Positions 1-16,720 of a DNA stretch of 18,050 bases are shown here, in pieces. Origin of the DNA: Thermodesulfovibrionales bacterium (GTDB lineage Bacteria; Nitrospirota; Thermodesulfovibrionia; Thermodesulfovibrionales; SM23-35); assembly GCA_963715195.1 (NCBI GenBank), contig CAVQRT010000027.1, forward strand, positions 1 to 18,050. Reading direction: 5' to 3'. Numbering within the stretch: position 1 is the stretch's first letter; each line of letters starts with the position of its first letter. Below the pieces are notes generated by a model, which ran no database searches, had not been told where the DNA came from, and saw only the letters and a program-made list of their open reading frames with translations. Position numbers and translations under genes: made by a program.

Positions 1-75
1 CCACCAAAAGAATGTAGTAATTTCAAGCAGTTACGCTTTTCTATTTTACATAACTACCGTCACCAAACTGTCACC
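1..75 (+). mobile_element. Probable tRNA 3' end followed by attL/P'-arm-like motifs
   Basis: Window opens with CCACCA; IHF-like TTTCAAGCAGTTA at 21-33 (consensus WATCAANNNNTTR); GTCACCA at 59-65 and 70-76 (11-bp spacing). Only 6 nt of the putative tRNA are visible. Confidence 0.45.
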
Positions 76-123
76 AGAAGACCTGTTCAGATAGCAAGTT
101 ATTAACACCAGAAAGGGGGGGGT

Positions 124-403
124 ATGGCTGAAGCTGATGAATTGCTGAAACCATCCTTTAAAGAATTAAATGTTTGACGACTATGCAGACATAAAAGTCC
201 TCTTAAAAGACTACTGTTCCAGAACGACGGAGGTCTACAAGGAATGTCCCTGCGGATGCCCGTTGTTCGGCACGGACATTATCAGGAAGAACAGTGTATG
301 GTGTGTACGGGGAGGAGACATTTCTATAGATATGTGGATGGGAAGACAAGGCATATGGGGAGCCCACGATGAAAGAATCGAAAGGTTCTCAGAATATTCT
401 TGA
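124..403 (+). CDS. Hypothetical protein, probably frameshifted near 165-170
   Basis: ATG at 124 follows a purine-rich SD-like run (GAAAGGGGGGGGT); that frame stops at ~177 while the 170-403 frame continues (CPCGCP motif). No family recognised. Confidence 0.35.
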
Positions 404-439
404 AATAGACAAGGAACTCCGGATGTTGTAACAGTTACA

Positions 440-503
440 CCCTTATCTTATTTCGATATAGTTCGATATATTTATACCGTTTTCGCTATGTTTTTTTCAC
501 GTT
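440..503. repeat. Truncated copy 1 of dispersed att-arm-like element
   Basis: Aligns without gaps to 11146-11209 with 3 mismatches in 64 nt (hand count); contains TTCGATATAG-type 10-mers and TCACGTT. Confidence 0.9.
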
Positions 504-535
504 ATTATATTCTCTCCATGATTCTGCAGGTCTTG

Positions 536-564
536 TTGACATTCTACTAAATACGTTCTACCAT
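536..564 (+). promoter_or_regulatory. Sigma70-type promoter, possibly for a leaderless mRNA starting at ATG 572
   Basis: TTGACA (536-541), 17 bp, TACCAT (559-564); in-frame ATG at 572 lies at the expected start site; no SD seen. Confidence 0.5.
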
Positions 565-1375
565 GACTTCAATGAACTACAGACTCACCCCATCAGAACT
601 CACGTTTCTATATGACGGCTGTAAGCATTGCTTTGTTATGAAAGTCAAACATGGCATTGCACAGCCATCAATCCCTATCCCTGGGGTATTTAGTGTAATT
701 GCTTCCCTCCAGAAGGAGTATTATTCAAATAGACGCCTTGAGGAAATTTGTCCAGGGTTTCCTCCTGGAACTATTAAATATGGAGAGAAATGGGTCAAAT
801 CAAACACCTTACAATTACCCGGCACTGAGAGTACTTGTTATATAAGCGGAAGATTTGACATTGTTGCTGAATTAGACGACGGAACATATGCAATCCTGGA
901 TTTCAAAACAGGAAGTCCAAGCAATGAAAAGTCTGCAATGTATTCAAGACAATTGCACAGTTATATTGTAGCCTTAGAAAACCCTGCAGAAGATGCACTC
1001 AAGCTTACCCCAATATCCAAACTTGGCCTAATTTATTTCACTCCTGACAAGTGTGAGAAGTTGGACATGTCACGTCAGCGTCTTGAGGGCCAAATAGATT
1101 GTGTTGACATAAAACGTGATGACAACGAATTCTTAAGCTTTCTCACAGAGGTTGTGAATTTGCTTGACGGACCGTTGCCTGCAATAGAAGCAGATAAGTG
1201 TGATTGGTGTAAATACCATACTAAAAAGGCTAATTTAAAGGACAGCATTGAAGTTGCTGGTGCTAATCCAAAATGTCCCAAATGTGATAGCGATATGCAA
1301 CTGAAATCAGGAAAGTATGGTGATTTCTGGTCTTGTGTGAAATTCCCTGACTGCAAGGGGACAAGGAATATTTAG
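563..1375 (+). CDS. PD-(D/E)XK (RecB/Cas4-like) nuclease with C-terminal topoisomerase-type C4 zinc finger
   Basis: GRFD...ILDFKTG and QLHSY motifs; N-terminal CKHC and CDWC cysteines; C-terminal CPKC..M.LKSGKYGDFWSC..FPDCK typical of zf-C4_Topoisom. True start may be 572. Confidence 0.85.
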   Translation: MTSMNYRLTPSELTFLYDGCKHCFVMKVKHGIAQPSIPIPGVFSVIASLQKEYYSNRRLEEICPGFPPGTIKYGEKWVKSNTLQLPGTESTCYISGRFDIVAELDDGTYAILDFKTGSPSNEKSAMYSRQLHSYIVALENPAEDALKLTPISKLGLIYFTPDKCEKLDMSRQRLEGQIDCVDIKRDDNEFLSFLTEVVNLLDGPLPAIEADKCDWCKYHTKKANLKDSIEVAGANPKCPKCDSDMQLKSGKYGDFWSCVKFPDCKGTRNI

Positions 1376-1508
1376 AAAGTCACGCATGTACCTGACTCGT
1401 ATCTGTAAATTTACTTCTTTCAAATCAATAACTCTTCCGGCTCTATAAATGGCGAATCAGAGGTGGTTGGGTTTATTTAGACAGCTAACAGATAAGGAGA
1501 TATTAGAG

Positions 1509-1892
1509 ATGAGTGAAGAAAACAAAGTTATCGTGACTTCTGCGGATAAAGTTCCAAAGAAAAATGTGCCAGCAGGCAAAAGTACCTCAATACAGATTCT
1601 TATTGGTTCTGATGTTGCCCCTAACTTTGCAATGAGACGCTTTATTATGGAACCTGGCGGAGGTATGCCCAACCACACAAATACTGTAGAACACGAACAA
1701 TTTGTTCTTGAAGGACGAGCCAAGGTAGGTATTGGGAATAAAGTCTATGACGTGAAAAAAGGGGATGTTGTATTTATCCCTAGGGACATTCCACACTGGT
1801 ATAGTGTAGAGGGAGAGGAGCCTTTTGAATTTCTATGTCTTGTTCCTAATATCCCTGATAGCATAGAAATTCTTGACAAGAGCAAGTCATAA
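1509..1892 (+). CDS. Cupin domain protein
   Basis: PGGGMPNHTNTVEHEQFVLEG and GDVVFIPRDIPHWY cupin motifs; SD AAGGAG before ATG 1509 (ORF track starts at 1449). Confidence 0.9.
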   Translation: MSEENKVIVTSADKVPKKNVPAGKSTSIQILIGSDVAPNFAMRRFIMEPGGGMPNHTNTVEHEQFVLEGRAKVGIGNKVYDVKKGDVVFIPRDIPHWYSVEGEEPFEFLCLVPNIPDSIEILDKSKS

Positions 1893-1941
1893 CAGTTGAA
1901 TAACGCTACCTCCCTACTAATGTGTTGAACTGATGAAAGGG

Positions 1942-1975
1942 GCCGGAGTCGAACCGACGACCTGCTGATTACGAA
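1942..1975 (-). pseudogene. tRNA-Thr(CGT) 3' fragment, anticodon loop to T-arm (att core-like)
   Basis: Minus strand TTCGTAA TCAGC AGGTC GTCGG TTCGACT CCGGC; no 5' half and no matching acceptor stem. Confidence 0.8.
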
Positions 1976-2116
1976 TACTTTTCAGGGGACTATACAAGGT
2001 CTTGAAAATACTGAATAAAGCCTTACCAGTAAAGGATTTAAGGCACTTTTTGTTTCGATATAGTTCGATATAGTTCTACCCTTTTCGATATAGTTCTATC
2101 ACGTTTTTATCACGTT
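1976..2116. repeat. Copy 2 of 141-bp att-arm-like element
   Basis: Gap-free alignment to 11080-11220 (24 mismatches in 141, ~83%, hand count); TTCGATATAG 10-mers; TATCACGTT twice at 11-bp spacing. Confidence 0.92.
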
Positions 2117-2306
2117 ACTTTGTTGACTCCCCAAAAAGTCTTTACTACAACAAATCTTTACCTTTCCTTACTACTTACTGAATGCGGCATTAGAAAGAGG
2201 TATTCAGGCAGTGGAGCAGATTTTATAAGAGCACATATGAATGATTTCGCAGAAGTATTGATGGAGATACTTTATACTAAGGTTTGAAGTGTTAAAAAAT
2301 GTGAAA

Positions 2307-2507
2307 ATGAACGGTTACCAAAAAATTGTCTTAATCTTTGGAATATTGATTCTGTTCATAAGCCTTATTCCATCTGATGACATAAGTCACGCTGCTTTCC
2401 CGATGGAAACACTGCTCAAAGGGTTGGGAATTGCACTGGTAATGGGTCTTTTTCTTTATGCATTTAAAGACCTCGGGAAAGGAAAAGTAAAGGGGAAAAA
2501 GAAGTAG
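2307..2507 (+). CDS. Small two-TM membrane protein with basic tail
   Basis: MNGYQKIVLIFGILILFI..., second hydrophobic segment, K-rich C-terminus; N-terminus resembles the ORF at 8829-8665, which favours ATG 2307 as start. Confidence 0.7.
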   Translation: MNGYQKIVLIFGILILFISLIPSDDISHAAFPMETLLKGLGIALVMGLFLYAFKDLGKGKVKGKKK

Positions 2508-2522
2508 AGCAAACAGACATAA

Positions 2523-2747
2523 CTCAAATTACACCTTTCTTACCATAAGACCCAACTTTTTGATAAGTCTACTGAAGTTGTAGTGGATGATGCTCCACAG
2601 GTATTGGAAAAGGCAGTTGATAAGGGAATTGTGGCTACCGGACTATTGTTTCCATGGAATCGAGAATTCGCAGACAATGGATTCAGGCTTTTTAATAATC
2701 TCAATGAGATTCTGGAATACATCCTTGGGGGGTCGGATGATTATTAA
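2523..2747 (+). pseudogene. 5'-truncated remnant of a HAD-superfamily 5'(3')-deoxyribonucleotidase-like gene
   Basis: Frame absent from the ORF track reads LHLSYHKTQLFDKSTEVVVDDAPQVLEKAVDKGIVATGLLFPWNREF...*; hhhDD plus PWN resembles the NT5C-like C-terminus; in-frame TAA directly upstream. Confidence 0.6.
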
Positions 2748-3020
2748 GAAATATGAGAAAGCGTATTAAATGTATATTAAATTGCGTTAGAAGTGAAATA
2801 CAGTAGTTAAGAAAAGCGTTTCAAGTAACCCTTACCATAAGTCGCTCATTTTTGCTTTGAGGATTTTTTCATAATTTGTATATCTTGGAGATTGCGGGGC
2901 AACTCCTATTCTATCTTTACCGATACTTATAGGTTCTGTTCATTCATCGGACCAAGTGATTCCTCTGAGAGATTCTTTCTGTAAGTATCGTATGATGCAT
3001 TTAATCTTGGTGCTGTCCAC

Positions 3021-3179
3021 AAAAAAAGTGGTGCTTACCTCCCCCCAGAACTCAGTTGATTGTACATCCTGAGACATACAGCTTTAGACTTTTACATCTA
3101 CGACCTACGTCTACGACCTTACAACGTATCTGAGTTTGAGAGGAGGAAGACCACCACTTGTGGGAATCTCTCTCTTCTT
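3021..3179 (-). ncRNA. Candidate structured ncRNA (long rod hairpin), family unknown
   Basis: Own promoter; ~40-bp interrupted stem (AAGUGGUG/CACCACUU, CCUCC/GGAGG, AACUCAG/CUGAGUU, UUGUA/UACAA) with G-U pairs on the minus strand; U7 tract; no credible ORF. Confidence 0.6.
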
Positions 3180-3185
3180 GATTTA

Positions 3186-3214
3186 CTTATACCGCACTTT
3201 GGAGTGGTTGTCAA
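3186..3214 (-). promoter_or_regulatory. Near-consensus sigma70 promoter
   Basis: Minus strand TTGACA-17 bp-TATAAG. Confidence 0.75.
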
Positions 3215-3292
3215 CTGCTTTTTGATAAGAACTCGTTGAGGTAGAAAAGAGGCTTTGACAGTTACAAGAAACTCTCTGTCCGATGAATGACC

Positions 3293-4274
3293 TTAAGCGG
3301 TTTGCTTGTTCCTTTTATGCTCATACATTGCTTTATCAGCTTGCATCAACAATTCATCAAGGGAACACGGGTTTTCGGGGTCATAATATGCTAACCCATA
3401 ACTTAATGAGAGCTTATATTGACGATTACTCGTTGCGTTATACGTCTCAATACATTTTTCAAAACGAGAAGTGATTATGCCAATGTTATCTTTGCCAGTG
3501 CCAATCGGAATGATGGCAAACTCATCACCACCAATCCGGGCTATGACATCTGATTCCCGATAATTCCTTTTCAGGATATTGGCGGTTTCAATTAACGCAC
3601 GGTCTCCTTCCTTGTGACCAAACGTATCATTAATTTCCTTTGAGATTATCCAAGTCAGCATACAGCATAAATATCCCTTCTTTTTGCCTTCTCGCAAGCT
3701 TTAAAAACTGTTCAGCTACCGCAAAGAATCCCCTCCGATTGTGTAGACCCGTTAGCTCATCAGTAAATGACATGGTATGCAGCGTCTCTTCTGCGATTTT
3801 GTAATCTGTAATGTCTTTTGAACAAACCGTAACCGCTTTGACTATTCCATTGTCCTTTCTTATCGGGCTAAGGGTTAGAAGGAAATATCTCCCATCCTTA
3901 TTACTTTTATATTCATGTGTGCTTGATTCACCGCTATCAAATACAGCATTTGCCTTTGCAGTAAATAATTCTGTTTCTTCGGGGGTGTGGTATTTACTAT
4001 ATTCTTTACCGAGGTACTCATTTCCAGAAAAACCCATCCGTCCTATGTGCTTTTTATTCATAAAAAGGTATTTTAAGGCTCTGTCTACCACATAGATGGA
4101 ATCATTCGTGGATTCAACTAATGAACGGTATTTTTCTTCAGCAAACTGAATCAATTTAGCCGATTTTTCTTTTTCTTTATTCTTTTCCGCTTCCTTCTCT
4201 AACTTCGCAATGCGTCTGCGGAATTTTTGCAATTCGTTGATTAGTTGTGTCTTCGTCTTCTTCTCATCGTCCAT
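3293..4274 (-). CDS. PAS-GGDEF diguanylate cyclase, split by a 1-nt frameshift near 3637
   Basis: Coiled coil plus PAS, then TDELTGLHNRRGF and ADLDNLK in 3630-4274; INDTFGH..GD, RESD I-site and ARIGGDEF in 3293-3697; SD AAGGAG upstream. Confidence 0.92.
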
Positions 4275-4440
4275 TTCTTACTCCTTCACAACTGATAATC
4301 AAAAGCACACATGGCATATGTGAGCAAATTATATTCATGTGGTATGGTCATTTTCAAGTATTCATATCACACTATCATTAGTAATGCACCAGATATCCTT
4401 GGGTTTCCCACTACATAACGAGAGGCACGCCTACCCACGT

Positions 4441-4505
4441 GTAGTAAAACTACTACAGCCCTACTTGAAAAATTACTACAAGACCTATTGAAGGAATACT
4501 ACAGA
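4441..4505. promoter_or_regulatory. 23-bp-periodic TACTACA repeats and GTAGT-N3-ACTAC palindrome (putative regulator sites)
   Basis: TACTACA at 4451, 4474 and 4497; intergenic, upstream of the GGDEF gene. Confidence 0.5.
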
Positions 4506-4513
4506 TTTGACTA

Positions 4514-4696
4514 TCAATAATCAGGGTTCAAAACCCCTCTACGCAAATCTTGCTCTTTTTCATACTCTTTTATAAGTCCTTGATAGTACTCCGTCAGTTT
4601 TGATAGCAAGGAACGGCGTTCCCTTACAGTAAGAGTAAAATAAAACGGCAGTTCCATTAATAGTGAAATGAATGTCTTTTCTACGCTGTTGCTCAT
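4514..4696 (-). CDS. Small hypothetical protein (60 aa)
   Basis: MSNSVEKTFISLLMELPFYFTLTVRERRSLL...; purine-rich AGGAG/AAGGA upstream of ATG 4696; the ORF-track extension to 4795 runs through palindromic sites. Confidence 0.6.
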   Translation of the reverse strand: MSNSVEKTFISLLMELPFYFTLTVRERRSLLSKLTEYYQGLIKEYEKEQDLRRGVLNPDY

Positions 4697-4857
4697 AACG
4701 AATACTTTCCTTACTCCTATTGTAGGGTTGCCTACAGGATAATCAACCCTCCCTACGTAGGATTGAATACATATGATGCTATCAGTAAGATACAACGTAA
4801 GGGCAGAGTACTTACGATATGACTCAGATAGGGCTAAATTAGGATAAAGGGGGACTT

Positions 4858-5478
4858 ATGGCTCAAACATTAGAAAACATACAAAGCCACGAAAGCAAAA
4901 TGCCCCCCACACAGGAAACCGTTCATAAGGGGAAGGTTCTCATCGTTGATGATGACGTTAATGTCGTAAATGCTATGCAAGATTACCTTACAGCGTGTGG
5001 CTATATGGCAGTTGGATGCACATCGGGGAAGGAGGCTATTGAGAAACTAAAAACGCATGATTTTGAGTTGCTGCTTACAGACCTTATGATGCCAGAAATG
5101 AACGGGGTTGAACTGTTGAAGGCAGCACAGGAATTAGACCCGCACCTCATGGGAATCATTCTAACCGGAAAGGGGACACTTGAAACTACCACAGAAATGA
5201 TGAAAGAAGCGGCTTTCCTTTGTTCTTTGAAACCCTTTAGTTTCAAAATGATGCAAATGATATTGTCTTGTGCATTAAAAAAGAGACGGCTCAGCAAACT
5301 GGAGGCGAAATATCATCTCCTTAATGATGAGCTTACAAACAGTATATCGGAACTTCAGAACCATAATAAGGAAACCGCAGATAAACAACTTGAAATTATT
5401 GAATTGAAGGAGGAAATAGACAATCTGAAAAAAGAGAAACAGTGCTACGAATATCTTGAAAAGCATTGGAAGCTATAA
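4858..5478 (+). CDS. Response regulator receiver protein with C-terminal coiled coil
   Basis: VLIVDDD, LLLTDLMMPEMNG, IILTG and KPF receiver motifs; SD AAAGGGGGA; no DNA-binding domain seen. Confidence 0.9.
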   Translation: MAQTLENIQSHESKMPPTQETVHKGKVLIVDDDVNVVNAMQDYLTACGYMAVGCTSGKEAIEKLKTHDFELLLTDLMMPEMNGVELLKAAQELDPHLMGIILTGKGTLETTTEMMKEAAFLCSLKPFSFKMMQMILSCALKKRRLSKLEAKYHLLNDELTNSISELQNHNKETADKQLEIIELKEEIDNLKKEKQCYEYLEKHWKL

Positions 5479-5495
5479 CGTGCATTAGTTGAAAA

Positions 5496-5531
5496 AAGGG
5501 GTCGGAGGTTCAAATCCTTTCGCCCCGACCA
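5496..5531 (+). pseudogene. tRNA-Pro-like 3' fragment (att core-like)
   Basis: AAGGGGTCGGAGGTTCAAATCCTTTCGCCCCGACCA matches the typical tRNA-Pro variable loop, T-arm, acceptor strand and CCA; D-arm and anticodon absent. Confidence 0.8.
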
Positions 5532-5583
5532 GCAATTTTTCTTTTATTCCAGTAGGTTGCATGTTTTACCTTACCTATATATC

Positions 5584-5605
5584 GCTGTCAAAATGCTGTC
5601 AAAAT
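5584..5605 (+). repeat. Perfect 11-bp tandem repeat GCTGTCAAAAT x2 (integrase arm-site-like)
   Basis: Seen directly, ~55 bp downstream of the tRNA-Pro fragment. Confidence 0.75.
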
Positions 5606-5748
5606 TTTCACAATTACTTCCTGGACTTAACAGTTCTGAGGTATTATCAAAAAGTGCATAGTCCAATTGGAAATCAATAAACTAACTCAATATATTACCC
5701 AACTTGTATAATATGGATATACATTGAAGAAAAGAGGTAAAACATACA

Positions 5749-5958
5749 ATGTTTGGTTCACAGGAGCTAATAATTATCGGGATAATAGTTGTTATTCTAT
5801 TTGGTGCAACAAAGCTTCCAAAACTTGGAAGTGGCATGGGTGAGGCAATCAGGAATTTCAAAAAAGGCATATCTGAAGCTACAAAAGACACATCTGAATC
5901 TGAAGAAATAGAAGCACCCAAGGAAAGCTCTAAGGAGGATAGCTCTAAAGAAGAATAG
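5749..5958 (+). CDS. tatA: Twin-arginine translocase TatA/TatE family subunit
   Basis: MFGSQELIII...ILFGATKLPKLGSGMGEAIRNFKKG signature; SD AAGAGGT. Confidence 0.95.
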   Translation: MFGSQELIIIGIIVVILFGATKLPKLGSGMGEAIRNFKKGISEATKDTSESEEIEAPKESSKEDSSKEE

Positions 5959-6032
5959 ACACAAAAAAGAAAGTCATTTAAAAGCTATTTTAGTGAATAT
6001 GTACCCCTTGGGGATGGTCGATTGAACTTGAA

Positions 6033-6695
6033 TTACCAACCTTTTGCAAGGTCTATTTGGTAACGATGGGATTCATCAAAAATTACAAAACCATTCAATT
6101 CTGACAATTGCTCATTTAGATATTTTTTTACCTCTTGTCTATATGCTTCTTTTTCTTCTTTACTTACATCTTGGTTAATTGGTTCCTTATCGGTTTTACT
6201 TACATCTTGGTTAATTGGTTCCTTATCGGTTTTACTTGCATCTTGGTTAATTAGTTCCTTATCGGTTTTACTTGCATCTTGGTTAATTAGTTCCTTATCG
6301 GGGTATTTGTATTTGAGAACTACAAAAAGGCGTGTGCGTTGTTTTGCTGGAATAAACAGGGGGGTTTTTATATATATGGAATCTTTCATTTCACTTATAA
6401 AGACATTATTGGGAAGTTTCCCCATAATTTTATAATCGCTAAATTCTCTAATTTCAAAGTCAGATTCAGATTTATTTTCTAATGTGTAGACAAACAAGAA
6501 ATGATTATCTGATGCTGTCGTAGTAACATAATCGAAAGAGGCTGTAATCGTTTTATTATCCCAATCTTTAGGTTTTCCTTCAGCCCAATAAAAAAGGAGG
6601 GAGAATATAGCAATGGTTATTGCAACTCCCGCAATAAATGCTACAGCTATAATTATTGCTGTTTTTCTACCTGAATATTGTTGCTGATAGTACAT
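6033..6695 (-). CDS. Membrane-anchored hypothetical protein with 12-aa tandem repeats
   Basis: N-terminal TM helix; DKE(L/P)INQD(A/V)SKT x4. Confidence 0.8.
   Translation of the reverse strand: MYYQQQYSGRKTAIIIAVAFIAGVAITIAIFSLLFYWAEGKPKDWDNKTITASFDYVTTTASDNHFLFVYTLENKSESDFEIREFSDYKIMGKLPNNVFISEMKDSIYIKTPLFIPAKQRTRLFVVLKYKYPDKELINQDASKTDKELINQDASKTDKEPINQDVSKTDKEPINQDVSKEEKEAYRQEVKKYLNEQLSELNGFVIFDESHRYQIDLAKGW
6159..6301. repeat. 36-bp coding tandem repeat, 4 copies
   Basis: TTTACTT(A/G)CATCTTGGTTAATT(G/A)GTTCCTTATCGGT units. Confidence 0.95.
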
Positions 6696-6869
6696 TTATT
6701 TTTGCAGTTTGATTGATTGAATATTATAATGCAAGCGAAAGATATTAGATAAGAACTCATCATTCAGAAAATCCTTTGTAATAACCTTTCAACAACTGCC
6801 CCTTCTTTGCCCTGCCAACTTTTCACGGTGGGAATAATGTACTTTGACGGTTATCAATGTGAGAATCTC

Positions 6870-6960
6870 TTGACAGCGATAAAGTAGTCTGATACATTTG
6901 GGGAAATAACCCCAATCTTTTCTCCTTTTATTTGGGGGCCTATTCAGCCCCCTTTCTTTT
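6870..6960 (+). ncRNA. Candidate ~55-60 nt sRNA unit (promoter, anti-SD stretch, intrinsic terminator)
   Basis: TTGACA-17-TACATT (TG-extended), TTGGGG/CCCCAA hairpin, TCTCCTTTT, then GGGGGC-N7-GCCCCC followed by TTTCTTTT. Confidence 0.45.
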
Positions 6961-7013
6961 GCACGGCAGATTTTTACTCTTGTTATGCTTGACCGCTCAT
7001 GCTATAATAAAAT

Positions 7014-7262
7014 ATGGATAAGAAGAAAAAGAAACAAACTGCCGATACAAAGTCCATTGTAGTTAGGGCAACTCATGAAGAATTATTGCCCGAAGTTGTC
7101 AAGGAATACTTACCTGCAATCAAAGAAAAGAATCCTGCTGCTGTAATATTAGGCCGCCTTGGTGGGATTAAAGGCGGTAAGGCAAGAGCCGAGAAGCTGT
7201 CTCCCAAGAAGCGGAAGGCGATAGCTAAAAAAGCCGCAAAAACCCGTTGGGCTAAGAAATAA
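7014..7262 (+). CDS. Small basic protein of the KNPAAVxLGRxGGxKGGKARA family (mobile-element associated)
   Basis: KNPAAVILGRLGGIKGGKARAEKLSPKKRKAIAKKAAKTRW; TGcTATAAT ends 5 nt before the ATG, suggesting a leaderless mRNA. Confidence 0.8.
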   Translation: MDKKKKKQTADTKSIVVRATHEELLPEVVKEYLPAIKEKNPAAVILGRLGGIKGGKARAEKLSPKKRKAIAKKAAKTRWAKK

Positions 7263-7346
7263 CCTATACACTCCATCTTCGGACATTTCTCTCTATATGT
7301 CCAAAATGTATCTGCTTTATTGACACTCGATTTATTTACTAACGAC

Positions 7347-7520
7347 TCAGGGCAAATCTTTGGAAAGCTCCTTCGCCCATATATGCTGAGCGGTGGCCAT
7401 TAATACTGGATACTGACTACATGCATCTCTGTATTTATCGGCGATTTCACCTGTGGTTGTACCTTTTTCTTCGTCGAAATATTTATCCTTTACTAATAGC
7501 AGCGCTTCTGAAATCTTCAT
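7347..7520 (-). CDS. Hypothetical protein (57 aa, possibly frameshift-truncated)
   Basis: SD GAAAGGA then MKISEALLLVKDKYFDEEKG...; directly downstream of 7541-7738. Confidence 0.4.
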   Translation of the reverse strand: MKISEALLLVKDKYFDEEKGTTTGEIADKYRDACSQYPVLMATAQHIWAKELSKDLP

Positions 7521-7540
7521 ATTATTTTCCTTTCTGAACT

Positions 7541-7738
7541 TTATTGCTCAGTTCCTTTTGAATCTCTCTGTGAAGCCCTCTGCTCCTTTTTCTTCGTCTT
7601 CCCCAACAAAGTTGCAATAACTTGGCCAAGAATCCCTCCAACAGCCGTCACCAGGATTGTCGGTATAAGACTGAATTTGAGAATATAATGAGTAACTGCA
7701 AATGCGATTATAGCTCCTGCAATGGAATATTTTGTCAT
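7541..7738 (-). CDS. Small two-TM membrane protein
   Basis: Two hydrophobic segments and a basic tail; SD AAGGGGGA. Confidence 0.7.
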   Translation of the reverse strand: MTKYSIAGAIIAFAVTHYILKFSLIPTILVTAVGGILGQVIATLLGKTKKKEQRASQRDSKGTEQ

Positions 7739-7991
7739 AGCGTATCCCCCTTAGCCCTCTGTCGGTTAACAGTTATTAGATTGGATGAGAATACCTCAAA
7801 TATTTTGAATCGGGATATGTTTCTAAATATAGCAAATTTATTTATGAAGTCAATCTTTTTTGAAGCTTCAAAGGCCAGCGAGATGGGCAGTCTGACTTAT
7901 TTAATGGGTAGTCTCAGCAGTATCGGTGAGGAAATTAATGAGTAGGCTCGGAATCGACTCTAACACTGTCAGCCATTCTCAGCTTTTCCTT

Positions 7992-8495
7992 TCAATTTTT
8001 TTCAAATAAGGATTCTATTAACTTAGTTACGATTGCCCAAAAAAGAAATCTACCCAATAAATATAGAGGATAGGCAATGAAAAGAAAAAATAGAAAAACA
8101 TAAAAATAATCAATCTTATAAATAATATTATCAAAGACCCTCTCGCCCTTATCATTGTAAGATGCATTGATATTTTTACCAATTGGAGAATCCCCAATAT
8201 ACCAAGTATCGAATTTGATATTGGGGAAGTCTCTTTTTATGGTAATTTTGATAACATTGTCGTTTGTGTTTTTCGGGAAATGTAGATTAATGTCTTCTGG
8301 TTTAGGTAGTTTTCCACCTATCTGTGGGACTTTGTCGCCGACGAAGACCGGCGTTATTACTTGAACATCGACTTCATAAAGTCTCCTTTCTTCACTAAAC
8401 CAATAACTGAGAAAAAATGAAATTCCAGCCAAAAACAACAGAAAAATTATAATCAATCTGTCTCTTGCAATTATCTTCTTAACAGCTGGTTTCAT
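7992..8495 (-). CDS. Hypothetical membrane protein (N- and C-terminal TM helices)
   Basis: 167-aa ORF with two hydrophobic stretches; ATGA overlap with the upstream ORF. Confidence 0.75.
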   Translation of the reverse strand: MKPAVKKIIARDRLIIIFLLFLAGISFFLSYWFSEERRLYEVDVQVITPVFVGDKVPQIGGKLPKPEDINLHFPKNTNDNVIKITIKRDFPNIKFDTWYIGDSPIGKNINASYNDKGERVFDNIIYKIDYFYVFLFFLFIAYPLYLLGRFLFWAIVTKLIESLFEKN

Positions 8496-8668
8496 AATCT
8501 TTTCTTATTACTTCTCGCTATTTTTTTCTTCGTAAACTTTGCAGACCCATATCCCTGATGTTCGCTTAATGGTTCAATGCACCGGTGAACAATGTTTCCA
8601 TTTTTATCTGTAATAATTTCTTTGTATGAGTTGTTTTCTCTGTCTATCACTCGGTCTAGGTTGTTCAT
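8492..8668 (-). CDS. 58-aa ORF, possibly the C-terminal part of a conserved hypothetical protein
   Basis: MNNLDRVIDRENNSYKEIITDKNGNIVHRCIEPLSEHQGYGSAK...; ATGA overlaps on both sides; family resemblance is from recall only. Confidence 0.5.
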   Translation of the reverse strand: MNNLDRVIDRENNSYKEIITDKNGNIVHRCIEPLSEHQGYGSAKFTKKKIARSNKKRL

Positions 8669-8829
8669 TTCTTCTCGCCAATACCTTTTAATGCCTAAAA
8701 GATTAGAATAGTTGGAACGACAATCATGGTTGTATGCTTGATGATTGCTATTGGATTGTAATCTTCCCTGATAACTAAAAATAACAATAGACCTCCGACT
8801 ATTAAGACAATCCTCTGATAAATGTTCAT
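8665..8829 (-). pseudogene. Small membrane protein similar to 2307-2507, with an in-frame TAG
   Basis: MNIYQRIVLIVGGLLLFL...PTILIF*ALKGIGEKK*; SD-like GAAGGT. Confidence 0.55.
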
Positions 8830-8876
8830 ATCAATACCTTCTATTGGTTTTTTCCTTCACATAGAAGGAAGGGGAG

Positions 8877-9140
8877 TCATTTTTTGCTCCTCTTTATAAA
8901 TTCATCTAATGGGTTAGGCTTTGGAATACATTCGTTCCAAGCAAAGGCAGCACTCTCTGCATTTAAATTTGGTGGCCCGCTGGCACCACAATTATCACAA
9001 TGAACATAATAAGCTTTTTTTGTTTTGACCACAGAAGGGAAATCTACGGAGTATGTCGACATCTTGAGAACAACCGAGCCACAAAATGGGCAATTATTTA
9101 AACGATACTTTATTTTATCTCTTGTTTCACCAAATGTCAT
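8877..9140 (-). CDS. Lar-family restriction alleviation protein (zinc ribbon)
   Basis: LNNCPFCG...YYVHCDNCGASGP...AAFAWN matches the Lar_restr_allev pattern. Confidence 0.8.
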   Translation of the reverse strand: MTFGETRDKIKYRLNNCPFCGSVVLKMSTYSVDFPSVVKTKKAYYVHCDNCGASGPPNLNAESAAFAWNECIPKPNPLDEFIKRSKK

Positions 9141-9528
9141 CGTTATGTCACCAAATAGGCTTTACGTTTTTACTGACATTTCACTGACACTTGTTAGGGT
9201 ATTGGATGGAATTTATCTATTTGAATTTTCTATTTTTTCAATAGTGAAATGCTTCAACATCCGCAGTTCCTTTCAAGTTGAGTTTTCAAGTTGTTATAGA
9301 ATTCCGCCCTTTTTGAAGAGCGTTATGGATTATTATGCATAATCTTGACCGACTTTTCTCATCAACGATGAAACAATGACTGTTGCTGAAATCGTGGAAA
9401 AGTGGACTGAAGAAACTTACTCTGATAGGACGAGAAAAAGATTCTTTATAGGATAGTAGCCAGAAGAAGATGTTACTGGCTGCCTCTGCCTGTTAACATT
9501 TCCAGCATTTCTTTTCACTTGCTAAATT

Positions 9529-9837
9529 CTATTCTTTGAGGACTTTCTTCTTTTCTTCAAATTCTTCTCTGTTAATTTCTCCCTTGGCATATCTTTCCTT
9601 AAGAATATCAAGTGCAGTATTTTCTTTTGTTTCCTTGCTGCCTTGTTTTGAAGATGCAGAAAGCCATTTTATGAGATAAATAACACCTATGATTACTGCA
9701 ACCCAGAATATGATATTAATGATACCCATAACCCAACCTGCTCCATATCCCATCATACCTGGCCCCATTCCTCCGCCATATCTGTCGTAACCACCCCATT
9801 GAAGCACTATGTTATTAATAAATGAAAATGAACTCAC
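9529..9837 (-). CDS. SHOCT-domain membrane protein
   Basis: G/M-rich N-terminus, TM helix, ALDILKERYAKGEINREEFEEKKKVL; GTG 9837 follows SD AAAGGAG. Confidence 0.9.
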   Translation of the reverse strand: MSSFSFINNIVLQWGGYDRYGGGMGPGMMGYGAGWVMGIINIIFWVAVIIGVIYLIKWLSASSKQGSKETKENTALDILKERYAKGEINREEFEEKKKVLKE

Positions 9838-10195
9838 AATTGCTCCTTTCCTCAACTTTTTTTGTCATGCAAGTTCCTCATGAACCATTGTACTCCTTTT
9901 GAAGGTAATGGGGAAGAATGGCGAAGCTGGAATGCGTAGCAGGTATATCCAAGGAATGATTTGAAAGTATTATCGCTTAAACTCTAATCAACCTCGTAGG
10001 CAACCTTGCCAATATTTTGTTGCCATCTGACCGTAGCCTTCTGAGAATCCCTTTACAGGGCAACAACTGTCCAAACCATCGCATAAGATTTGGCAGATTT
10101 ATGATAGAAAATACATTCTGAATAAAGTAAGCAGTCAATGATTTAGGAGTAGCTTTATTAATAAATAAATGCAGTAAATTGAGGGAAAATATTTA

Positions 10196-10651
10196 ATGGG
10201 TGAGATGATAGAAATATTCTGTAAGGAGTGCGATTACAGAAAAGGTTTTTCGCTTGGCGTGGGGATGGAGTATTATTCTGTCGAAAATGTTTTAGAGCTT
10301 GTCCATCCTTCGTGCTGGAAGGAAATTAAGGATATTTTCCATAATCATGAAGTTCTGGTACAAGACGGCTGTCATACTCTATTTCGTTGCGTCAAATGCA
10401 ATGCGTTGTATGAACGGTTCTATTTGAAAATTTACTATCAAACGCACGATGGCGAGAAAAGGACATATGAGACGCCTCATTTCTGCTCCAAATGTCGGAC
10501 AGAATTGACTCCGGTGAATGTCGTCGAAGAAATTGATGAAGACGATTACGGAGGAGAACAAGAAAAATTAGCTTCCTTTGTTGAGCAATTACCCTGCCCA
10601 AAGTGTGCGAAGAAATCCCTTGCCATTCAGAATACAGGTTATTGGGACTAA
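10196..10651 (+). CDS. Cys-rich hypothetical protein with four CxxC motifs (probable Zn binding)
   Basis: CKEC, CVKC, CSKC, CPKC; ends GYWD; SD GAGGG. Confidence 0.8.
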   Translation: MGEMIEIFCKECDYRKGFSLGVGMEYYSVENVLELVHPSCWKEIKDIFHNHEVLVQDGCHTLFRCVKCNALYERFYLKIYYQTHDGEKRTYETPHFCSKCRTELTPVNVVEEIDEDDYGGEQEKLASFVEQLPCPKCAKKSLAIQNTGYWD

Positions 10652-10700
10652 CTGCATATCAAAACAGACGGAGTAAAAATACTGTGGATACGTTAGGGAG

Positions 10701-10969
10701 TTATCTCTGAATCTCTAACCCTATCTTATATGTACCATTCCCAAACTTCTTATACCATCTGACAACTGCCTTCTTTGCCTTAGGCACGACAACGCTGCTC
10801 ACAATGATTTCTTGACCCTCATCGAGAGGCTGATGTGCTATCAGACACAGTCCCGAAGCACTCCAATCCTTTATCATTCCCTTCAACACGGTATCAGATA
10901 TATCCGGTGATGGAGCTAACGAACCATTTGCATAAGGTCATCTCTTTTATATGTTCTCCGCTCTATCAT
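10701..10969 (-). CDS. Stand-alone PilZ-domain protein, frameshifted near 10916
   Basis: ATG 10969 gives MIERRTYKR (RxxxR); after a 1-nt shift, APSPDISDTVLKGMIKDWSASG (DxSxxG)...AVVRW...YKIGLE. Confidence 0.75.
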
Positions 10970-11045
10970 CTGTATGACCTTTTTTCTGCGGAATAGATTG
11001 CGGGAAAAAGGAGTGGTTTGTCAATATTGATTCGCTCAGTAATCG

Positions 11046-11079
11046 GTAGGAATCGAACCTGCGACACCAGGTTTAGGAA
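11046..11079 (-). pseudogene. tRNA-Arg(CCT) 3' fragment, anticodon loop to T-arm (att core-like)
   Basis: Minus strand TTCCTAA ACCTG GTGTC GCAGG TTCGATT CCTAC; no 5' half and no acceptor stem. Confidence 0.8.
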
Positions 11080-11220
11080 AACTAATACGGGGACTACACA
11101 AGGTCTTGAAAATACCGAATAAAGCCTTATCAGTCAAGGGTTTATCCCCTATCTTGTTTCGATATAGTTCGATATATTTCTACCGTTTTCGCTATGTTTT
11201 TTTCACGTTTTTATCACGTT
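11080..11220. repeat. Copy 3 of 141-bp att-arm-like element
   Basis: Colinear with 1976-2116 at a constant offset of 9104; IHF-like AGTCAAGGGTTTA at 11132-11144. Confidence 0.92.
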
Positions 11221-11530
11221 TCTTCCATATCTTCTTCATGTTTCCTTCACATCTTTTGTCTAACCTAAGATTAGGACAGTTTGATTTTCACTCCTTTCTC
11301 TCAACGAGAGTCTCCCCTGCTCTGGTTGACTCAAACTGTCCCCTCTATTCCTTTCTGAAGTCTGCAGGACTAACGTCCGGTAAGAAATAGCGGAGTACTC
11401 CTGAAAATCACTACCCACACGAAAAATATTTTCAAAACAGCAATTTCCCCAAGAAAAAAAGCAATATTTCTGTTGCAATACACTAATTAAGTGATAGTCT
11501 ATAAATAAGAGTGAAAAATGGGGGGAGAAG

Positions 11531-11580
11531 TGGGCAGGGATAAAGTTCTTCCGTGAAAGATTTCTCTGCCCATTTATTTT
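11531..11580 (+). terminator. Stem-loop with T-rich tail (terminator-like)
   Basis: TGGGCAGGGA...TCTCTGCCCA followed by TTTATTTT. Confidence 0.45.
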
Positions 11581-11673: not shown

Positions 11674-13933
11674 ATGTTTAGGGGGAGATTTCATAATTCT
11701 GTAGTAGTCGCAATTGCCTGTATTACAATCGCAATGTCTTTTTGCGGATATGCTTCAGCACAGGAAGTTGAGCCGCCATATTCTTATCCAATAGCAGTAG
11801 GTAGCACTTTCTGTAGCGCCAATTGCCCAAGCGGTATCTATCCTACAATGTGCGAGCTGAGCCTACCGATAGCTTTATTCTCAGCACCAAGCCCAGTCCC
11901 TGATAATCTAAAATTTGGTTGGACAAGTCTTTTATCTCAGCCTGGCAGCACAAGTGAGTATGGTGCTTTAATGTGTGCTGGAATACCTTATCAGGATATC
12001 TGTGCATCGGGCGGCATTTGGGGTGTACCAGGCACTTCAACTGCGACTATGCGGAATTTGGAGTCTCTGATGTTTGACCCTTCCTTTGATGCAGCAAACA
12101 AGGAAAAGGATATTTCGGGTAATGTGACAGGTTGGTGGACCCTTCTTCCTCAGACTATGCACCTTGACCCAATGTCTCCACCCGACCCAAATCCTGTTAT
12201 AGGGCATGTTTTAACACGCATAATTGCAGTTTGCGCACTCGGAATTTCTGGGTGCAGGGCCTTTGATGCCCCGCCTGGCTTATGTTCTGCGTTCCCAGTT
12301 AATTCGGTCGTTATTGACCGAATTTCTTGTTTGCCCTGTTCTGGGACTCCAAATCTTCATATAATGACTCAGTATCCAATAAATTTTGGTGAAGTAAATG
12401 TAGGAGATTCATCAACCGCGCAAGAAGTAAGGATATTAAATGCGGGTAGCAATATATTGTACATCAATGAAGTCGACATTACAGGCTCTGACTCATCAGA
12501 GTTCACCATACAGAGCAATGACTGCTCCGTTAGACTTTTAATGCCATCATCAGAATGCACCATCCAACTGGGTTTCTCTCCGACTAACGGCGGTCAAAGA
12601 AATGCTACACTCGCTATATCATCAAATGACCCATATAATCCAGTTACTGAAGTGTCTTTAAATGGGTGGGGTATGGTTCCGTCATATAATCTCTCCGTTA
12701 CAAACATAATGGGCTCTGGCAGCGTCTCAGCAATTGGTATTGCTTGTCCAGCCGACTGCTCTGAAACTTATAATTCTGGAACGAATGTCGAGCTCACAGC
12801 AAACCCTGATTCCGGCTGGTACTTTGATTATTGGGGAGGCGATATATCTGGGGATGCGAATCCGTATAGCCTATTGATAGATGCGAATAAGAGTATTACG
12901 GCTGCATTCCAAGAAATTGATACTGATGGCGATGGTGTCCCTGATTCGAGGGATAACTGTCCGCTTGACCAGAATCCTGACCAAAGCGACATGGACAGCG
13001 ACGGTAAAGGAGATGTGTGCGACACTTGCCCTAACGATGAAGACAATGACATAGATTCAGACGGTATATGCGGAGATACCGACAATTGTCCAAATGTATC
13101 CAATTCTAATCAATTAGATTCTGATGCAGATGGAATAGGTGATGCGTGTGATACTTGTCCTTACGACAAAGATAACGATATTGATGGGGACGGTGTGTGC
13201 AGCAATATCGATAATTGCCCCAATATAGCTAATCCTGGGCAGAGCGATGCGGACCAAGACGGGATTGGTGACGACTGTGATATCTGCCCTCATGATTCTC
13301 AAAATGATATTGACTCGGACGGAGTATGTGGTGACACAGACAATTGTCCATCGATTGCAAATTCAAATCAGGCGAACTCAGACGGGGATGGGTTAGGGGA
13401 TGTCTGTGACCCATGCCCGTTTGATTCTCAAAATGATATTGATGCGGGATGGAGTTTGCGGAGATGTTGATAATTGTCCGGGATTCCAAATTCAAGTCAG
13501 TCTGATGCAGATGGGGATGCTTTTCGGAGATGTATGTGACTCATGCCAGTATGATGCAGATAATGACATCGACGGAGACACATCTGTGGTGATACGGACA
13601 ATTGCCCCAATGTTGCTAAATGCTGACCAAGCCGACATGGATGGTGATGGTGTGGGCAATGTCTGCGACGATGATGCTGACGGAGATGGCTTTACCAATA
13701 ATGTTGACTGTAATGACTTGAATCCAAATATCAATCCACAAGCCTGTGACATCAGGAACGACGGTATTGACCAAGACTGTGACGGTGTAGACAGGACAAA
13801 GGGTAAGCCGTGTGTTACGGAAACCGATGAAGGGTTAAAAGAAAGGGCGTGCTCTGATGGCGTTGATAACGATAATGACGGATTTGTAGATTGTGCTGAC
13901 TCTGACTGTGTTAAGAAGAAGGAGTGCAGATAA
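11674..13933 (+). CDS. Large secreted protein: Cys-rich N-region, choice-of-anchor-D/Ig-like domain, InlB-B-type repeat, thrombospondin type 3 repeats, MopE-like metal-binding motif; several frameshifts in ~13440-13620
   Basis: Signal peptide ending ASA-Q; INFGEVNVG...F.PT..G.R.ATL.ISSNDP; VELTANPDSGWYFDYWGGD; repeated D.D.DG.GD.CD.CP; DCND.NP.INP...DGIDQDCDG. Confidence 0.85.
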
Positions 13934-14040: not shown

Positions 14041-16184
14041 ATGATGACAAGGGAGATAATTGAAAGCACAATCCATATATGTCAATTAATCTCAGAGCAT
14101 AATCTTTCCAAAGCAAAACTGGACAAAACCCAAAATAAGACACATTGGGAAAATTATAATAATTTTATTGTTCCGGCAATAAACGAATTTAAATCTCAAA
14201 ACAATACTGCAACTCCCAACAAAATCCTCTCGAGATTTTTGAATGACTATATTGAAAAAAATAATCTTACTGGAGCATTTGCTTCCAGTGATTTTCATAT
14301 TGTCGGCAGATTCATCAACCCGTACTTTTGGGCTTGCATCCATGAAAAACACTCTGAATCCCAACAGTATACGAAATCACCACAGCTATATATTCTTATC
14401 AATAAACACGGGATTAAATTTGGCTTTGATTACGGCAATGCTGTTAAGAGGACAGACCCAGCAGTCCAATTAGTTCTATCAGATGTAAGGTTACAGAAAA
14501 AGGTCTTGGACGCATATAAACAAGTAGAAGGTCTTAAAATCTATGCAGACGTCGAAGCGAGCGAAGAACCAGAACCAAGAAACGAACTAAAAAGTTTCAA
14601 TCAACAAGACGTTGGAGAAAATTGGGATGAAAATACACACGTTATAGCTTATTACCCCATTTTAAATCTGCCAGACAATTTAGATGGTAAGATTACCGAG
14701 ACTTTTGACCAACTTCTAGAATTATTTAAAATGACATCCTCAGATACTGCCAATAAAATTGACACGGCCAAATCGGATAGACAGGAAGATGAAGAACCAT
14801 TGAGAATGGGTCTTTCGAGTGAAAAGAATAAATACTGGCTTTATGCCCCCGGGGAAAGAGCTAGGTTATGGGAAGAATTTTATGAAGAAGGGATTATTGG
14901 CATCGGTTGGGATTATCTAGGAGAATTATCATCCTATAGAACAAAACAAGACATAGCTAATGCTATCAAGACGTACAAAGGTGGCGATAGTTCAAGAAAA
15001 AATGATGCAAGAGCTTGTTATGACTTTATTTATACACTCAAGCAGGGCGATATAATTATTGCAAAAAGGGGAAGAAAAGAATATTTGGGATATGGCGTCG
15101 TAAAGTCTGAATATATTTTTGATGCCAGTCGGCCCGAATACAAAAATATCAGAAAAGTAAACTGGCTTAAAAAAGGCAGGTGGCAGGAAACAGCAAATTC
15201 AAATAGCCTTAAAAACATTAACGGATATTACTCAATACAAGGATTATGTCAAGAGACTGAGCAACCTTCTTGGCATAGATTTAACCGATACTGAACGCCC
15301 ATCTCCACAGGAGAGTCCTGTTTCCATCGAGGAAATTCTTTCAGATTTATTTATAGACAAAGAGGAATTTTTAAAAATACTCAGTCGTTTCAGAACTAAG
15401 AAGAACCTTATACTTCAAGGCCCCCCGGGAGTTGGAAAGACTTTTTTTGCAAAGAAACTTGCTTATTCATTAATAGGTATTAGGGACATATCAAGGGTTC
15501 AAATGGTTCAGTTCCACCAGTCCTATGCTTATGAGGACTTTATTCAGGGTTATCGTCCTAGTGATGAAGGAAAGTTTGTCTTGAAGGACGGAATCTTTTT
15601 TAACTTCTGTCAGCTTGCCAAGAAAGACCCTCAACAGAAGTTCGTTTTTATCATAGATGAAATAAATAGAGGTAATCTGAGTAAAATTTTTGGTGAAGTA
15701 ATGTTGCTTATCGAGTCAGACAAAGAAGTGGTGATTGGTCTATACCGCTTGTTTACACATCGGACAATAATATCAAGTTTTATGTTCCAGAGAACTTATA
15801 CTTACTCGGATTGATGAATACCGCTGACCGTTCGTTGGCAATGGTCGATTACGCTCTGCGGAGACGGTTCAGTTTTGTCAGCCTTGTCCCCCAATTCCAC
15901 AATGACAAATTCCGAAGAATGCTGAGAGAAAAAGGGACACTGGATACGCTTGTTGATAAAATCGTTAATAGGATGTCTTCGTTAAACGAGAAGATTGGAA
16001 ATGATAATAACTTGGGTGATGGATATAAAATTGGTCATAGCTATTTTTGTCCAGACAACTCAGTAAAACCTGATGATAAATGGTATAGGGATGTAATAGA
16101 GACAGAAATAGCCCCCTCCTAATGGCATATTGGTTTGACCCGCCCGAAAAAGCTGCAAAAGAGATAAGATATCTTCTTGAATAA
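14041..16184 (+). CDS. mcrB: McrB-like AAA+ GTPase with extended N-terminal region; frameshifts near 15195, 15727 and 16117
   Basis: NLILQGPPGVGKT (Walker A at 15419-15442, outside the ORF track), VQFHQSYAYEDFIQG, IIDEINRGN, MNTADRS..DYALRRRF, IGHSYF; extended -10 TGaTATAAT at 14000-14008. Confidence 0.9.
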
Positions 16185-16189
16185 CTGCA

Positions 16190-16720
16190 GTGGAAATCCC
16201 AATTCAAAACATCTATTACTTACTTTGTTACGCATATAACAAACTTGAAGAAAGGGTAAAATCCTCGATGTCGAGACGGAAAAATGTGGAAACATAGAAA
16301 ACCTTTTTGCACGAGTCTTATCTAGCGGGATATCCCTATTAATCAGAAGGGGTCTGGACAGAGGTTATGTGGCCTTTGATGATGAGTTAAGTGGTATTCG
16401 AGGGAAAATTAACTTCAGTGTCTCAATAAGGAAGCGACTTTTTCATCAGGCAAGAGCCTTTTGTGAGTATGACGAGTTACATTTCAATGTTCTACATAAC
16501 AGAATTTTAAAGGCTGCAATTAAACTCCTCCTCGGTACAGAGGGGTTAGATTCATTATTTAAGGATAAATTATCACAGATATATCGCATTTTTTCTGAAA
16601 TAGATGAGATTAAACTCCATAAGAGAGATTTCCGTTTAGTCCAACTTCATGCCAATAACAACTTTTATGATTTTTTATTAAACATATCAGAACTTATACT
16701 AGATAACGTCTCGGTTTCAG
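16190..16720 (+). pseudogene. mcrC: McrC-like restriction subunit, 5' portion, interrupted by IS256
   Basis: GTG 16190 gives EIPIQNIYYLLCYAY (McrC-like N-terminus); later IRRGLDRGY..IRGKINF..C.YDE...N.LHNRILKA; frame ends at the IS left end; additional frameshift near 16255. Confidence 0.85.

What the first reader, a model, noticed from the sequence alone, without database searches (positions are those of the whole stretch)
440..11220. One non-coding att-arm element repeated three times, fused to different tRNA anticodon loops, with no integrase: possible tRNA-att-based gene accretion system
Seen: a 141-bp element at 1976-2116 and 11080-11220 (gap-free, ~83% by hand) plus a truncated copy at 440-503, all in the same orientation. 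Both full copies abut, in identical register, a 34-nt tRNA fragment running from the anticodon loop to the T-arm end, but from different tRNAs (Thr-CGT, Arg-CCT). Moving away from the core, the order is an IHF-like site, four to five 10-bp-periodic TTCGATATAG-type units, then (A/T)TCACGTT twice at 11-bp spacing. Established: this parallels a lambda-type P arm (~150 bp with IHF, Xis and Int arm sites), and many tyrosine integrases cross over in 7-bp tRNA anticodon loops. Inference: these are att scars or non-autonomous sites of one integrase family acting in trans. They bracket small unrelated cargo genes and may work like an integron-style cassette array.
Basis: partly seen in the sequence, partly recalled or inferred. 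Interest (0 to 1): 0.85.

Follow-up and report, generated by a model that had tools for sequence, protein, structure and literature searches.

The report
Scrambled island integration scars in Nitrospirota
The three repeats are leftover docking ends of small mobile DNA islands that normally insert into tRNA genes, here stranded without their integrase in a shuffled island; this is a known way for genomic islands to build up, seen in a little-studied group of bacteria.

Summary
The repeat is real (117/141 identical). It is the long att arm (attR side) of a family of tyrosine-integrase elements of Nitrospirota. Of 156 distinct arms collected, 117 abut a tRNA half starting at the anticodon loop, 116 of them 25-28 bp from the IHF-like box, over 11 tRNA target classes; others abut dapB or a tRNA-Ser 5' end. 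The cognate integrases exist: they carry the same TCACG pair in their last codons, and one complete 19-kb island ends in this arm. Relatives show tandem integrase-less islets at one target, as known for CIMEs and tycheposon islands. The window is not such an array. Its cores come from different tRNAs, are cut short by secondary joins, have no partner att site, and no intact cognate integrase was found in the genome. I read the copies as displaced scars, not an integron-like system. Most interesting by-product: the arm and the integrase N-terminal domain stay together while the catalytic part and target change. The scan noted similar scar arrays on other DNA. New member of a known kind.

The parts
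1..85 (+). Contig start: CCACCA (looks like a tRNA 3' end), IHF-like box and a GTCACC pair; short att arm of a different family
   Evidence: 34/40 identical to the DNA after tRNA-Leu(GAG) on contig C29; which tRNA precedes it cannot be seen
388..444 (+). Gene remnant joined to the truncated arm at a CCCTT microhomology
   Evidence: 82% match to C3:293425-293481, inside the tRNA-Ser(TGA) island, ending where copy 1 begins
440..508 (+). Copy 1: distal half of the arm (10-bp units, one TCACG); core and IHF boxes lost
563..1375 (+). Cargo: PD-(D/E)XK nuclease with C-terminal zinc ribbon
   Evidence: Pfam PF12705, PF01396
1449..1892 (+). Cargo: cupin protein
   Evidence: Pfam PF07883; none of the 10 homolog loci examined showed a tRNA piece
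1936..1948 (+). 13-bp junction, one mismatch to 5495-5507 (start of the tRNA-Pro piece); place where the Thr half is cut
   Evidence: one Logan contig joins 1913 to 5495
1944..1975 (-). tRNA-Thr(CGT) piece, anticodon loop to T stem; loop 1969-1975 is the inferred 7-bp overlap
1976..2116 (+). Copy 2: full arm (IHF-like boxes at 1995-2007 and 2028-2040, 10-bp units at 2054/2064/2084, TCACG pair 2099-2114)
   Evidence: 76% identical to the attR arm of the complete island in G067
2104..2528 (+). Arm end plus 72-aa membrane ORF; also present behind tRNA-Pro(TGG) on C31 with an arm remnant
   Evidence: 93% identity
5495..5544 (+). tRNA-Pro 3' piece (T arm to CCA) plus 13 bp of its flank; scar of a T-arm-type event, opposite orientation
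11048..11079 (-). tRNA-Arg(CCT) piece, anticodon loop to T stem; loop 11073-11079
11080..11220 (+). Copy 3: full arm, TCACG pair 11203-11218
11219..11356 (+). Non-coding block also found behind tRNA-Leu(GAG) on C29 and on C30
   Evidence: 88% and 80% identity
16817..18038 (+). IS256-type (Mutator family) transposase at the contig end; anything beyond, including a possible attL and integrase, is not visible
   Evidence: PF00872

Best explanation
The repeat is the long (P-type) attachment arm of a family of small tyrosine-integrase elements of Nitrospirota. In a working element the integrase gene, with an excisionase-like HTH gene, points at the target; its last codons hold a TCACG pair, then an IHF-like box and the target (short arm). 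The far end holds the long arm: TCACG pair, 10-bp units, two IHF-like boxes, and the displaced half of the target, starting at the 7-nt anticodon loop. This anatomy is shown by sequence; protein binding and the crossover point are inferred from the lambda model. Elements pile up at a target and often lose the integrase end. The window copies are such attR ends that were later moved with neighbouring cargo into a mosaic island by other events (T-arm-type recombination or short-homology joins). They are probably inert here.
For: Fixed register: 116 of 117 tRNA-linked arms start the tRNA half 25-28 bp from the anchor. Complete island in G067: intact tRNA-Arg, integrase with TCACG pair, HTH_17 gene, D5-type primase-helicase, 19 kb, arm 75-76% identical to the window copies. 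Integrases ending in the TCACG pair lie at Ala, Arg, Glu and Ser tRNAs. Conservation over 163 arms peaks at the IHF-like box and the TCACG pair. 97 of 115 3' halves are complete; only the two window copies stop at 32 nt. The Thr cut lies in a 13-bp match to the Pro scar, and one contig of another run lacks exactly that segment. Copy 1 is joined to a gene remnant at a 5-bp microhomology. Host tRNA-Thr(CGT) lies mid-contig on C30 and tRNA-Arg(CCT) on C7. Many window blocks have 68-95% paralogs elsewhere in the genome, several beside tRNA genes.
Against: Both full copies stop at the same base, which chance joins do not readily explain; I could trace the Thr junction but not the Arg junction. The arms are still well preserved. 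The contig ends at an IS, so an attL and integrase may lie just beyond. The genome is 6.6% contaminated, so the contig may come from a sister strain. The 1913-5495 joint rests on one contig with 36 letters on its short side, from a run holding 0.31 of the sampled words.
Confidence: 0.72

Rival explanations
1. Integrase-less mini-elements of this family are maintained and moved in trans by cognate integrases, so the family is a cargo shuttle; the window copies are its debris.
For: All 10 arms whose intact tRNA was visible bound islets of 0.7-4.5 kb with no integrase. L314 (dapB) and L071 (tRNA-Glu) keep both arms; L314 keeps only the last few dozen integrase codons. The same Fic cargo (324/349 aa) sits at dapB and at tRNA-Arg, and the same ATPase (92%) at tRNA-Lys and tRNA-Arg. 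Tandem arm-bounded units occur in L055, L476, L516, L576, L464.
Against: The count is biased: flanks of 8 kb or less hide long, integrase-bearing elements (only 39 of 132 arms had 5 kb of distal flank). Only 1 of the 10 islets keeps the cognate short arm. Integrases of different targets are only 36-39% identical overall, so their core recognition probably differs. No mobility data.
Confidence: 0.15
2. One reading: the window is an integron-like array in which a trans-acting integrase inserts cassettes at these sites.
For: Three same-orientation copies among small unrelated genes; equal truncation of both cores.
Against: Overlap regions differ (Thr and Arg loops) or are missing; no short partner arm was found; units are 1.6 and 9.1 kb with genes on both strands; no integrase on the contig and no intact cognate one found in the genome (N-domain HMM best E 0.54; no hit at 1e-40); the one traced boundary lies at the T arm.
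Confidence: 0.05
3. The contig comes from a co-binned sister strain or is misjoined, and the copies are ordinary attR ends near their own tRNA genes.
For: 6.6% contamination; some tRNA genes occur two or three times; several split ORFs; no long record spans the window.
Against: Its 4-mer profile matches island segments of the long host contigs (r 0.95). Even in another strain, Thr and Arg cores in series with T-arm cuts need secondary events.
Confidence: 0.07
4. The repeat is an IS end, a non-coding RNA, a promoter or part of a gene.
For: None specific.
Against: No Rfam match at the copies; fixed fusion to anticodon loops and sharing of the TCACG pair with integrase gene ends.
Confidence: 0.01

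Closest known systems
tRNA-targeting tyrosine-integrase islands with anticodon-centred (A) sites, Islander (PMC4383910; parts 1-2 of 3 read)
   Same: Displaced tRNA fragment marks the end; A-site crossover (2083 of 3919 islands); 5' fragments occur (159); tandems occur; targets are said to switch often.
   Different: Window copies have no integrase, no intact tRNA on the contig, and mixed targets, so Islander would reject them. The family also uses dapB.
CIMEs and microCIMEs, accretion at att sites (PMC7563491, PMC5704250; passages read)
   Same: Decayed elements that lost recombination genes, 1.2-13 kb with cargo, stacked at one target. L314, L071, L055, L476 fit this picture.
   Different: CIMEs derive from conjugative elements and keep attL and attR. 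Parents here look satellite-like (primase-helicase, HTH genes), most islets lost the short arm, and the window copies keep attR only.
Tycheposon islands of Prochlorococcus (10.1101/2020.12.28.424599; passages read)
   Same: Small cargo or satellite-like elements at several tRNAs; islands strewn with partial tRNAs and integrase fragments.
   Different: Other phylum; relationship of the integrases not tested.
HE-PICI integrase clade (PMC10111431; passages read)
   Same: A doubled motif at fixed distance from the crossover is kept across many target groups.
   Different: Targets prophage late genes, not tRNAs; there the integrase tree follows the site groups.
Lambda-type att arms (PMC2951348, PMC8138268; passages read; binding-site layout recalled)
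   Same: N-terminal domain binds arm sites, C-terminal part binds the core; IHF and an excisionase assist.
   Different: Binding is untested here.

Membership tests
A-site tRNA-targeting integrase elements | tRNA fragment begins at the anticodon loop in fixed register | tested here: met
   window copies and 116 of 117 tRNA-linked arms
A-site tRNA-targeting integrase elements | Arm repeats shared with the integrase-bearing end | tested here: met
   TCACG pair at integrase 3' ends in relatives
A-site tRNA-targeting integrase elements | Intact cognate tRNA gene, same orientation, same replicon | tested here: not met
   none on the window contig; host genes lie on C30 and C7; met in relatives
A-site tRNA-targeting integrase elements | Integrase gene inside the element | tested here: not met
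   none on C27; met in G067, where the gene is in two ORFs in the assembly. The copies are remnants of members, not members.
A-site tRNA-targeting integrase elements | Int, IHF and Xis binding; excision | not testable with these tools
   needs experiment
CIME | Recombination genes lost | tested here: met
CIME | Both attL and attR retained | tested here: not met
   no further TCACG or CGTGA pair on C27 beyond the two long arms; met in L314 and L071
CIME | Tandem at one target gene | tested here: not met
   window has Thr, Arg and Pro pieces; met in L055, L476, L516, L576
CIME | Derived from an ICE or IME and cis-mobilised | not tested
   relaxases were not searched for; the parents seen carry primase-helicase genes
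Integron | Integron integrase beside the array | tested here: not met
   no PF00589 match on C27
Integron | Single-gene, co-oriented cassettes | tested here: not met
   units of 1.6 and 9.1 kb, genes on both strands
Integron | attC single-strand hairpin | not tested
   repeat was not folded
Tycheposon | Tycheposon integrase clades and hallmark genes | not tested
   no comparison with their profiles

The most novel reading that the evidence does not exclude
The TCACG arm and its matching integrase N-terminal domain form a shared chassis that has been coupled to different core-binding and catalytic domains, reaching at least 13 target classes in both orientations. Arms at different loci can then be engaged by the same proteins, so integrase-less islets and their cargo are actively shuttled between tRNA and dapB sites, and mixed loci like this window are products of that cross-talk.
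Probability: 0.2. Interest if true: 0.65.

Novelty: new member of a known kind. Interest (0 to 1): 0.3.

Why it matters
As scars, the copies are ordinary. The family behind them is a usable natural data set on how integrases change targets: over 150 arms with a fixed register, 11 tRNA target classes plus dapB and a tRNA-Ser 5' end, both orientations, and integrases whose N-terminal and catalytic parts have different trees. This bears on retargeting tyrosine integrases. It also shows island material that tools requiring an integrase (Islander) skip in Nitrospirota.

Tried and rejected
1) The integrase next to the arm on contig C26 first looked cognate. Rejected: different N-terminus, no TCACG pair at its end; it belongs to the neighbouring element of a tandem. 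The same holds for the L056 integrase. 2) search for related loci with the C26 C-terminal piece found nothing. 3) Arm pattern in viral contigs: 0 hits. A shorter pattern gave 121 unspecific hits that I did not analyse and left out of all counts. 4) A strict pattern for the window's sub-lineage: 0 in metagenomes, 1 in genomes, so no close strain was available to map module gain or loss. 5) Cargo searches in 57 family genomes: no real homolog of the nuclease or 72-aa modules outside this genome; cupin homologs in 10 genomes showed no tRNA piece, which counts against the cupin being a standing cassette. 6) Read laying gave only short contigs from runs holding 0.11-0.31 of the words; joints 11141-435 and 11223-2119 reflect the repeat itself; uncovered parts say nothing. 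7) The partner of the Arg junction was not found. 8) Rfam: one chance hit elsewhere. 9) Papers: searches on Thermodesulfovibrio or Nitrospirota with tRNA islands, dapB as a target and arm-domain shuffling listed nothing on this family; the library lacks most subscription journals, and no supplements were read.
Full report
OBSERVATION. The window is the whole contig C27 of a 2.8-Mb draft genome, 39% GC against 45-47% on the long contigs. The repeat is as described: 1976-2116 and 11080-11220 agree at 117 of 141 positions without gaps, and 440-503 agrees with the third copy at 61 of 64. The BLAST score is 153 bits against a maximum of 29.2 in 30 shuffles. Both full copies abut minus-strand tRNA pieces, Thr-CGT (1944-1975) and Arg-CCT (11048-11079), each 32 nt from the start of the anticodon loop. 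Each arm has two IHF-like boxes (consensus recalled), three clean 10-bp units and a TCACG pair. No integrase lies on the contig.

THE FAMILY. The genome holds two more full arms, on C26 with a whole Lys-CTT 3' half and on C29 with a whole Arg-CCT 3' half, and a remnant on C31. A model of the arm matched 34 of 57 genomes of the family and 33 of 151 of the order at a stricter cut-off, this genome included. A pattern scan gave 46 loci in species genomes, 44 titled as Nitrospirota taxa, 119 stretches in metagenomes and none in viral contigs. I infer that the host is a Nitrospirota bacterium. Among 156 distinct arms with enough flank (5 too short and a few without the anchor motif were dropped; the listing was cut and the totals come from the printed summary), 117 abut a tRNA half. 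3' halves: Arg-CCT 36, Glu-CTC 27, Ala-GGC 22, Glu-TTC 11, Lys-CTT 5, Thr-CGT 4, Arg-ACG 1. 5' halves: Arg-CCT 5, SeC 4, Arg-ACG 1, Gly-CCC 1. In 116 of the 117 the loop starts 25-28 bp from the anchor. The other 39 include damaged halves, a tRNA-Ser 5' end and the 3' end of dapB. These arms are kin and some are the same natural site in several assemblies, so the counts are not independent.

THE INTEGRASE. The integrase beside the arm on C26 is a neighbour in a tandem, not the owner. The owners are recognised by a TCACG pair in their last codons, followed by an IHF-like box and the target. Five of 122 distinct full-length integrases showed this. In a search of family genomes 7 of 30 loci did, at Ala, Arg, Glu and Ser tRNAs, three of them repeats of the former set. 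G067 holds a whole element: intact tRNA-Arg(CCT), integrase (two ORFs in the assembly), an HTH_17 gene, a D5-type primase-helicase, about 19 kb in all, ending in an arm 75-76% identical to the window copies plus the Arg 3' half. A second class points the integrase at the tRNA 5' end and appears to supply a promoter, leaving the 5' half on the arm. In this genome an HMM of the cognate N-terminal domain found nothing (best E 0.54) and only a C-terminal remnant with a TCACG pair lies on C7; a whole-protein search found no hit at 1e-40.

DOMAIN PATTERN. The TCACG integrases share the N-terminal 50 residues (51-76% to L114) while whole-protein identity between targets falls to 36-39%. On 34 rows that I chose (6 TCACG, 28 others), one clade is rejected for the core-binding and catalytic part (p 2e-5) and not rejected for the N-terminal part (p 0.39). 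The second result does not prove a clade: only 53 columns were used, and similar N-termini occur in integrases with other repeats (L236, L141, L241). It fits the known division of labour, arm binding by the N-terminal domain (PMC2951348, PMC8138268, passages), and suggests domain exchange.

INTEGRASE-LESS ISLETS. For 10 arms the intact cognate tRNA was visible; all bound islets of 0.7-4.5 kb without integrase. This is biased toward short units, since only 39 of 132 arms had 5 kb of distal flank. Only 1 of the 10 (L071) keeps the cognate short arm. L314 is a clean two-armed case at dapB with a stump of the integrase. Tandems at one target occur in L055, L476, L516, L576 and L464. Near-identical cargo appears at different targets (Fic 324/349 aa; ATPase 92%), mostly toxin-antitoxin and ATPase genes. 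This matches CIMEs and microCIMEs (PMC7563491, PMC5704250, passages) and the partial tRNAs in tycheposon islands (10.1101/2020.12.28.424599, passages). Islander already counts A-site islands, 5' fragments and tandems (PMC4383910, parts 1-2 of 3).

THE WINDOW ITSELF. It departs from these arrays. The host tRNA-Thr(CGT) lies mid-contig on C30 and tRNA-Arg(CCT) on C7. Of 115 3' halves, 97 are complete and only the two window copies stop at 32 nt. The Thr cut lies within 13 bp that recur, with one mismatch, at the start of a tRNA-Pro piece at 5495; one Logan contig joins 1913 to 5495, skipping the Thr-arm segment (single contig, 36 letters on the short side, weak). Copy 1 is fused to a gene remnant at a 5-bp microhomology. 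The Arg junction could not be traced. Many blocks have paralogs elsewhere in the genome, several beside tRNA genes, among them the arm end plus 72-aa gene behind tRNA-Pro(TGG). So the traceable boundaries that placed the copies here are not at the anticodon loops, where this family recombines. Shown: anatomy, register, family, absence of an integrase on the contig. Inferred: protein binding, crossover point, order of events, inertness.

VERDICT. Displaced attR scars of a new family of a known kind of element (0.72). A family-wide shuttle of integrase-less islets is possible (0.15), an integron-like array at this locus unlikely (0.05), a co-binned or misjoined contig possible (0.07). The equal truncation of both cores remains unexplained. 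My searches (listings only, plus passages of two papers) showed nothing on this family, but a conserved doubled motif across target switches is described for HE-PICIs (PMC10111431, passages). Williams 2002 and Pavlovic 2004 were seen only as references. Earlier notes of this scan describe like arrays in other genomes; I did not check them. Interest 0.3.

Noticed in passing
L314:5012-7610 (G028:C19): The arm family also uses the 3' end of dapB; a 2.5-kb two-armed islet with a Fic gene and an integrase stump. About ten arms abut this target. One paper search found nothing on dapB as an integration site.
   Followed up: partly
L211, L208, L210 and L004:4400-4534 (G000:C7): Intact tRNA-Arg(CCT) genes preceded by an arm-repeat pair and a TATAAT-like box; in L211 an integrase points at the tRNA 5' end. 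The tRNA seems to be driven by element DNA, with the displaced 5' half left at another locus.
   Followed up: partly
L203:9646-9861 and L197:16976-17147: Short and long arms fused through their shared CGTGA pair directly after tRNA-Ala: the whole element body appears deleted between the arm repeats.
   Followed up: no
L012, L051, L054, L057, L081, L103: Dead tRNA halves carry short palindromes (CCCGA...TCGGG type) inserted into or replacing the T arm, like REP sequences.
   Followed up: no
G000:C7:440055-440882: Integrase remnant before tRNA-Leu(TAG) whose N-terminal half is replaced by an HU-like gene (read from the translation, not tested by profile).
   Followed up: no
window 1-85; G000 C29:16280-16350, C31:74046-74130, C30:37374-37490: Several intact tRNA genes of this genome are followed by short arms of other repeat types with no integrase.
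   Followed up: partly
window 3293-4274, 11674-13933, 14041-16725, 16817-18038: PAS-GGDEF, thrombospondin-repeat surface protein, McrBC-like and IS256 genes are each split; sequencing errors or decay.
   Followed up: no
window 11422-11578 and 9348-9447: Non-coding block repeated on six contigs; the two parts lie close together on C30 and are joined in contigs of two runs.
   Followed up: no
window 6123-6302: 36-bp tandem repeats (12 aa) inside a 220-aa ORF of no known family.
   Followed up: no
window 411-436 and 9247-9272: 26-bp inverted repeat beside the cut end of copy 1.
   Followed up: no
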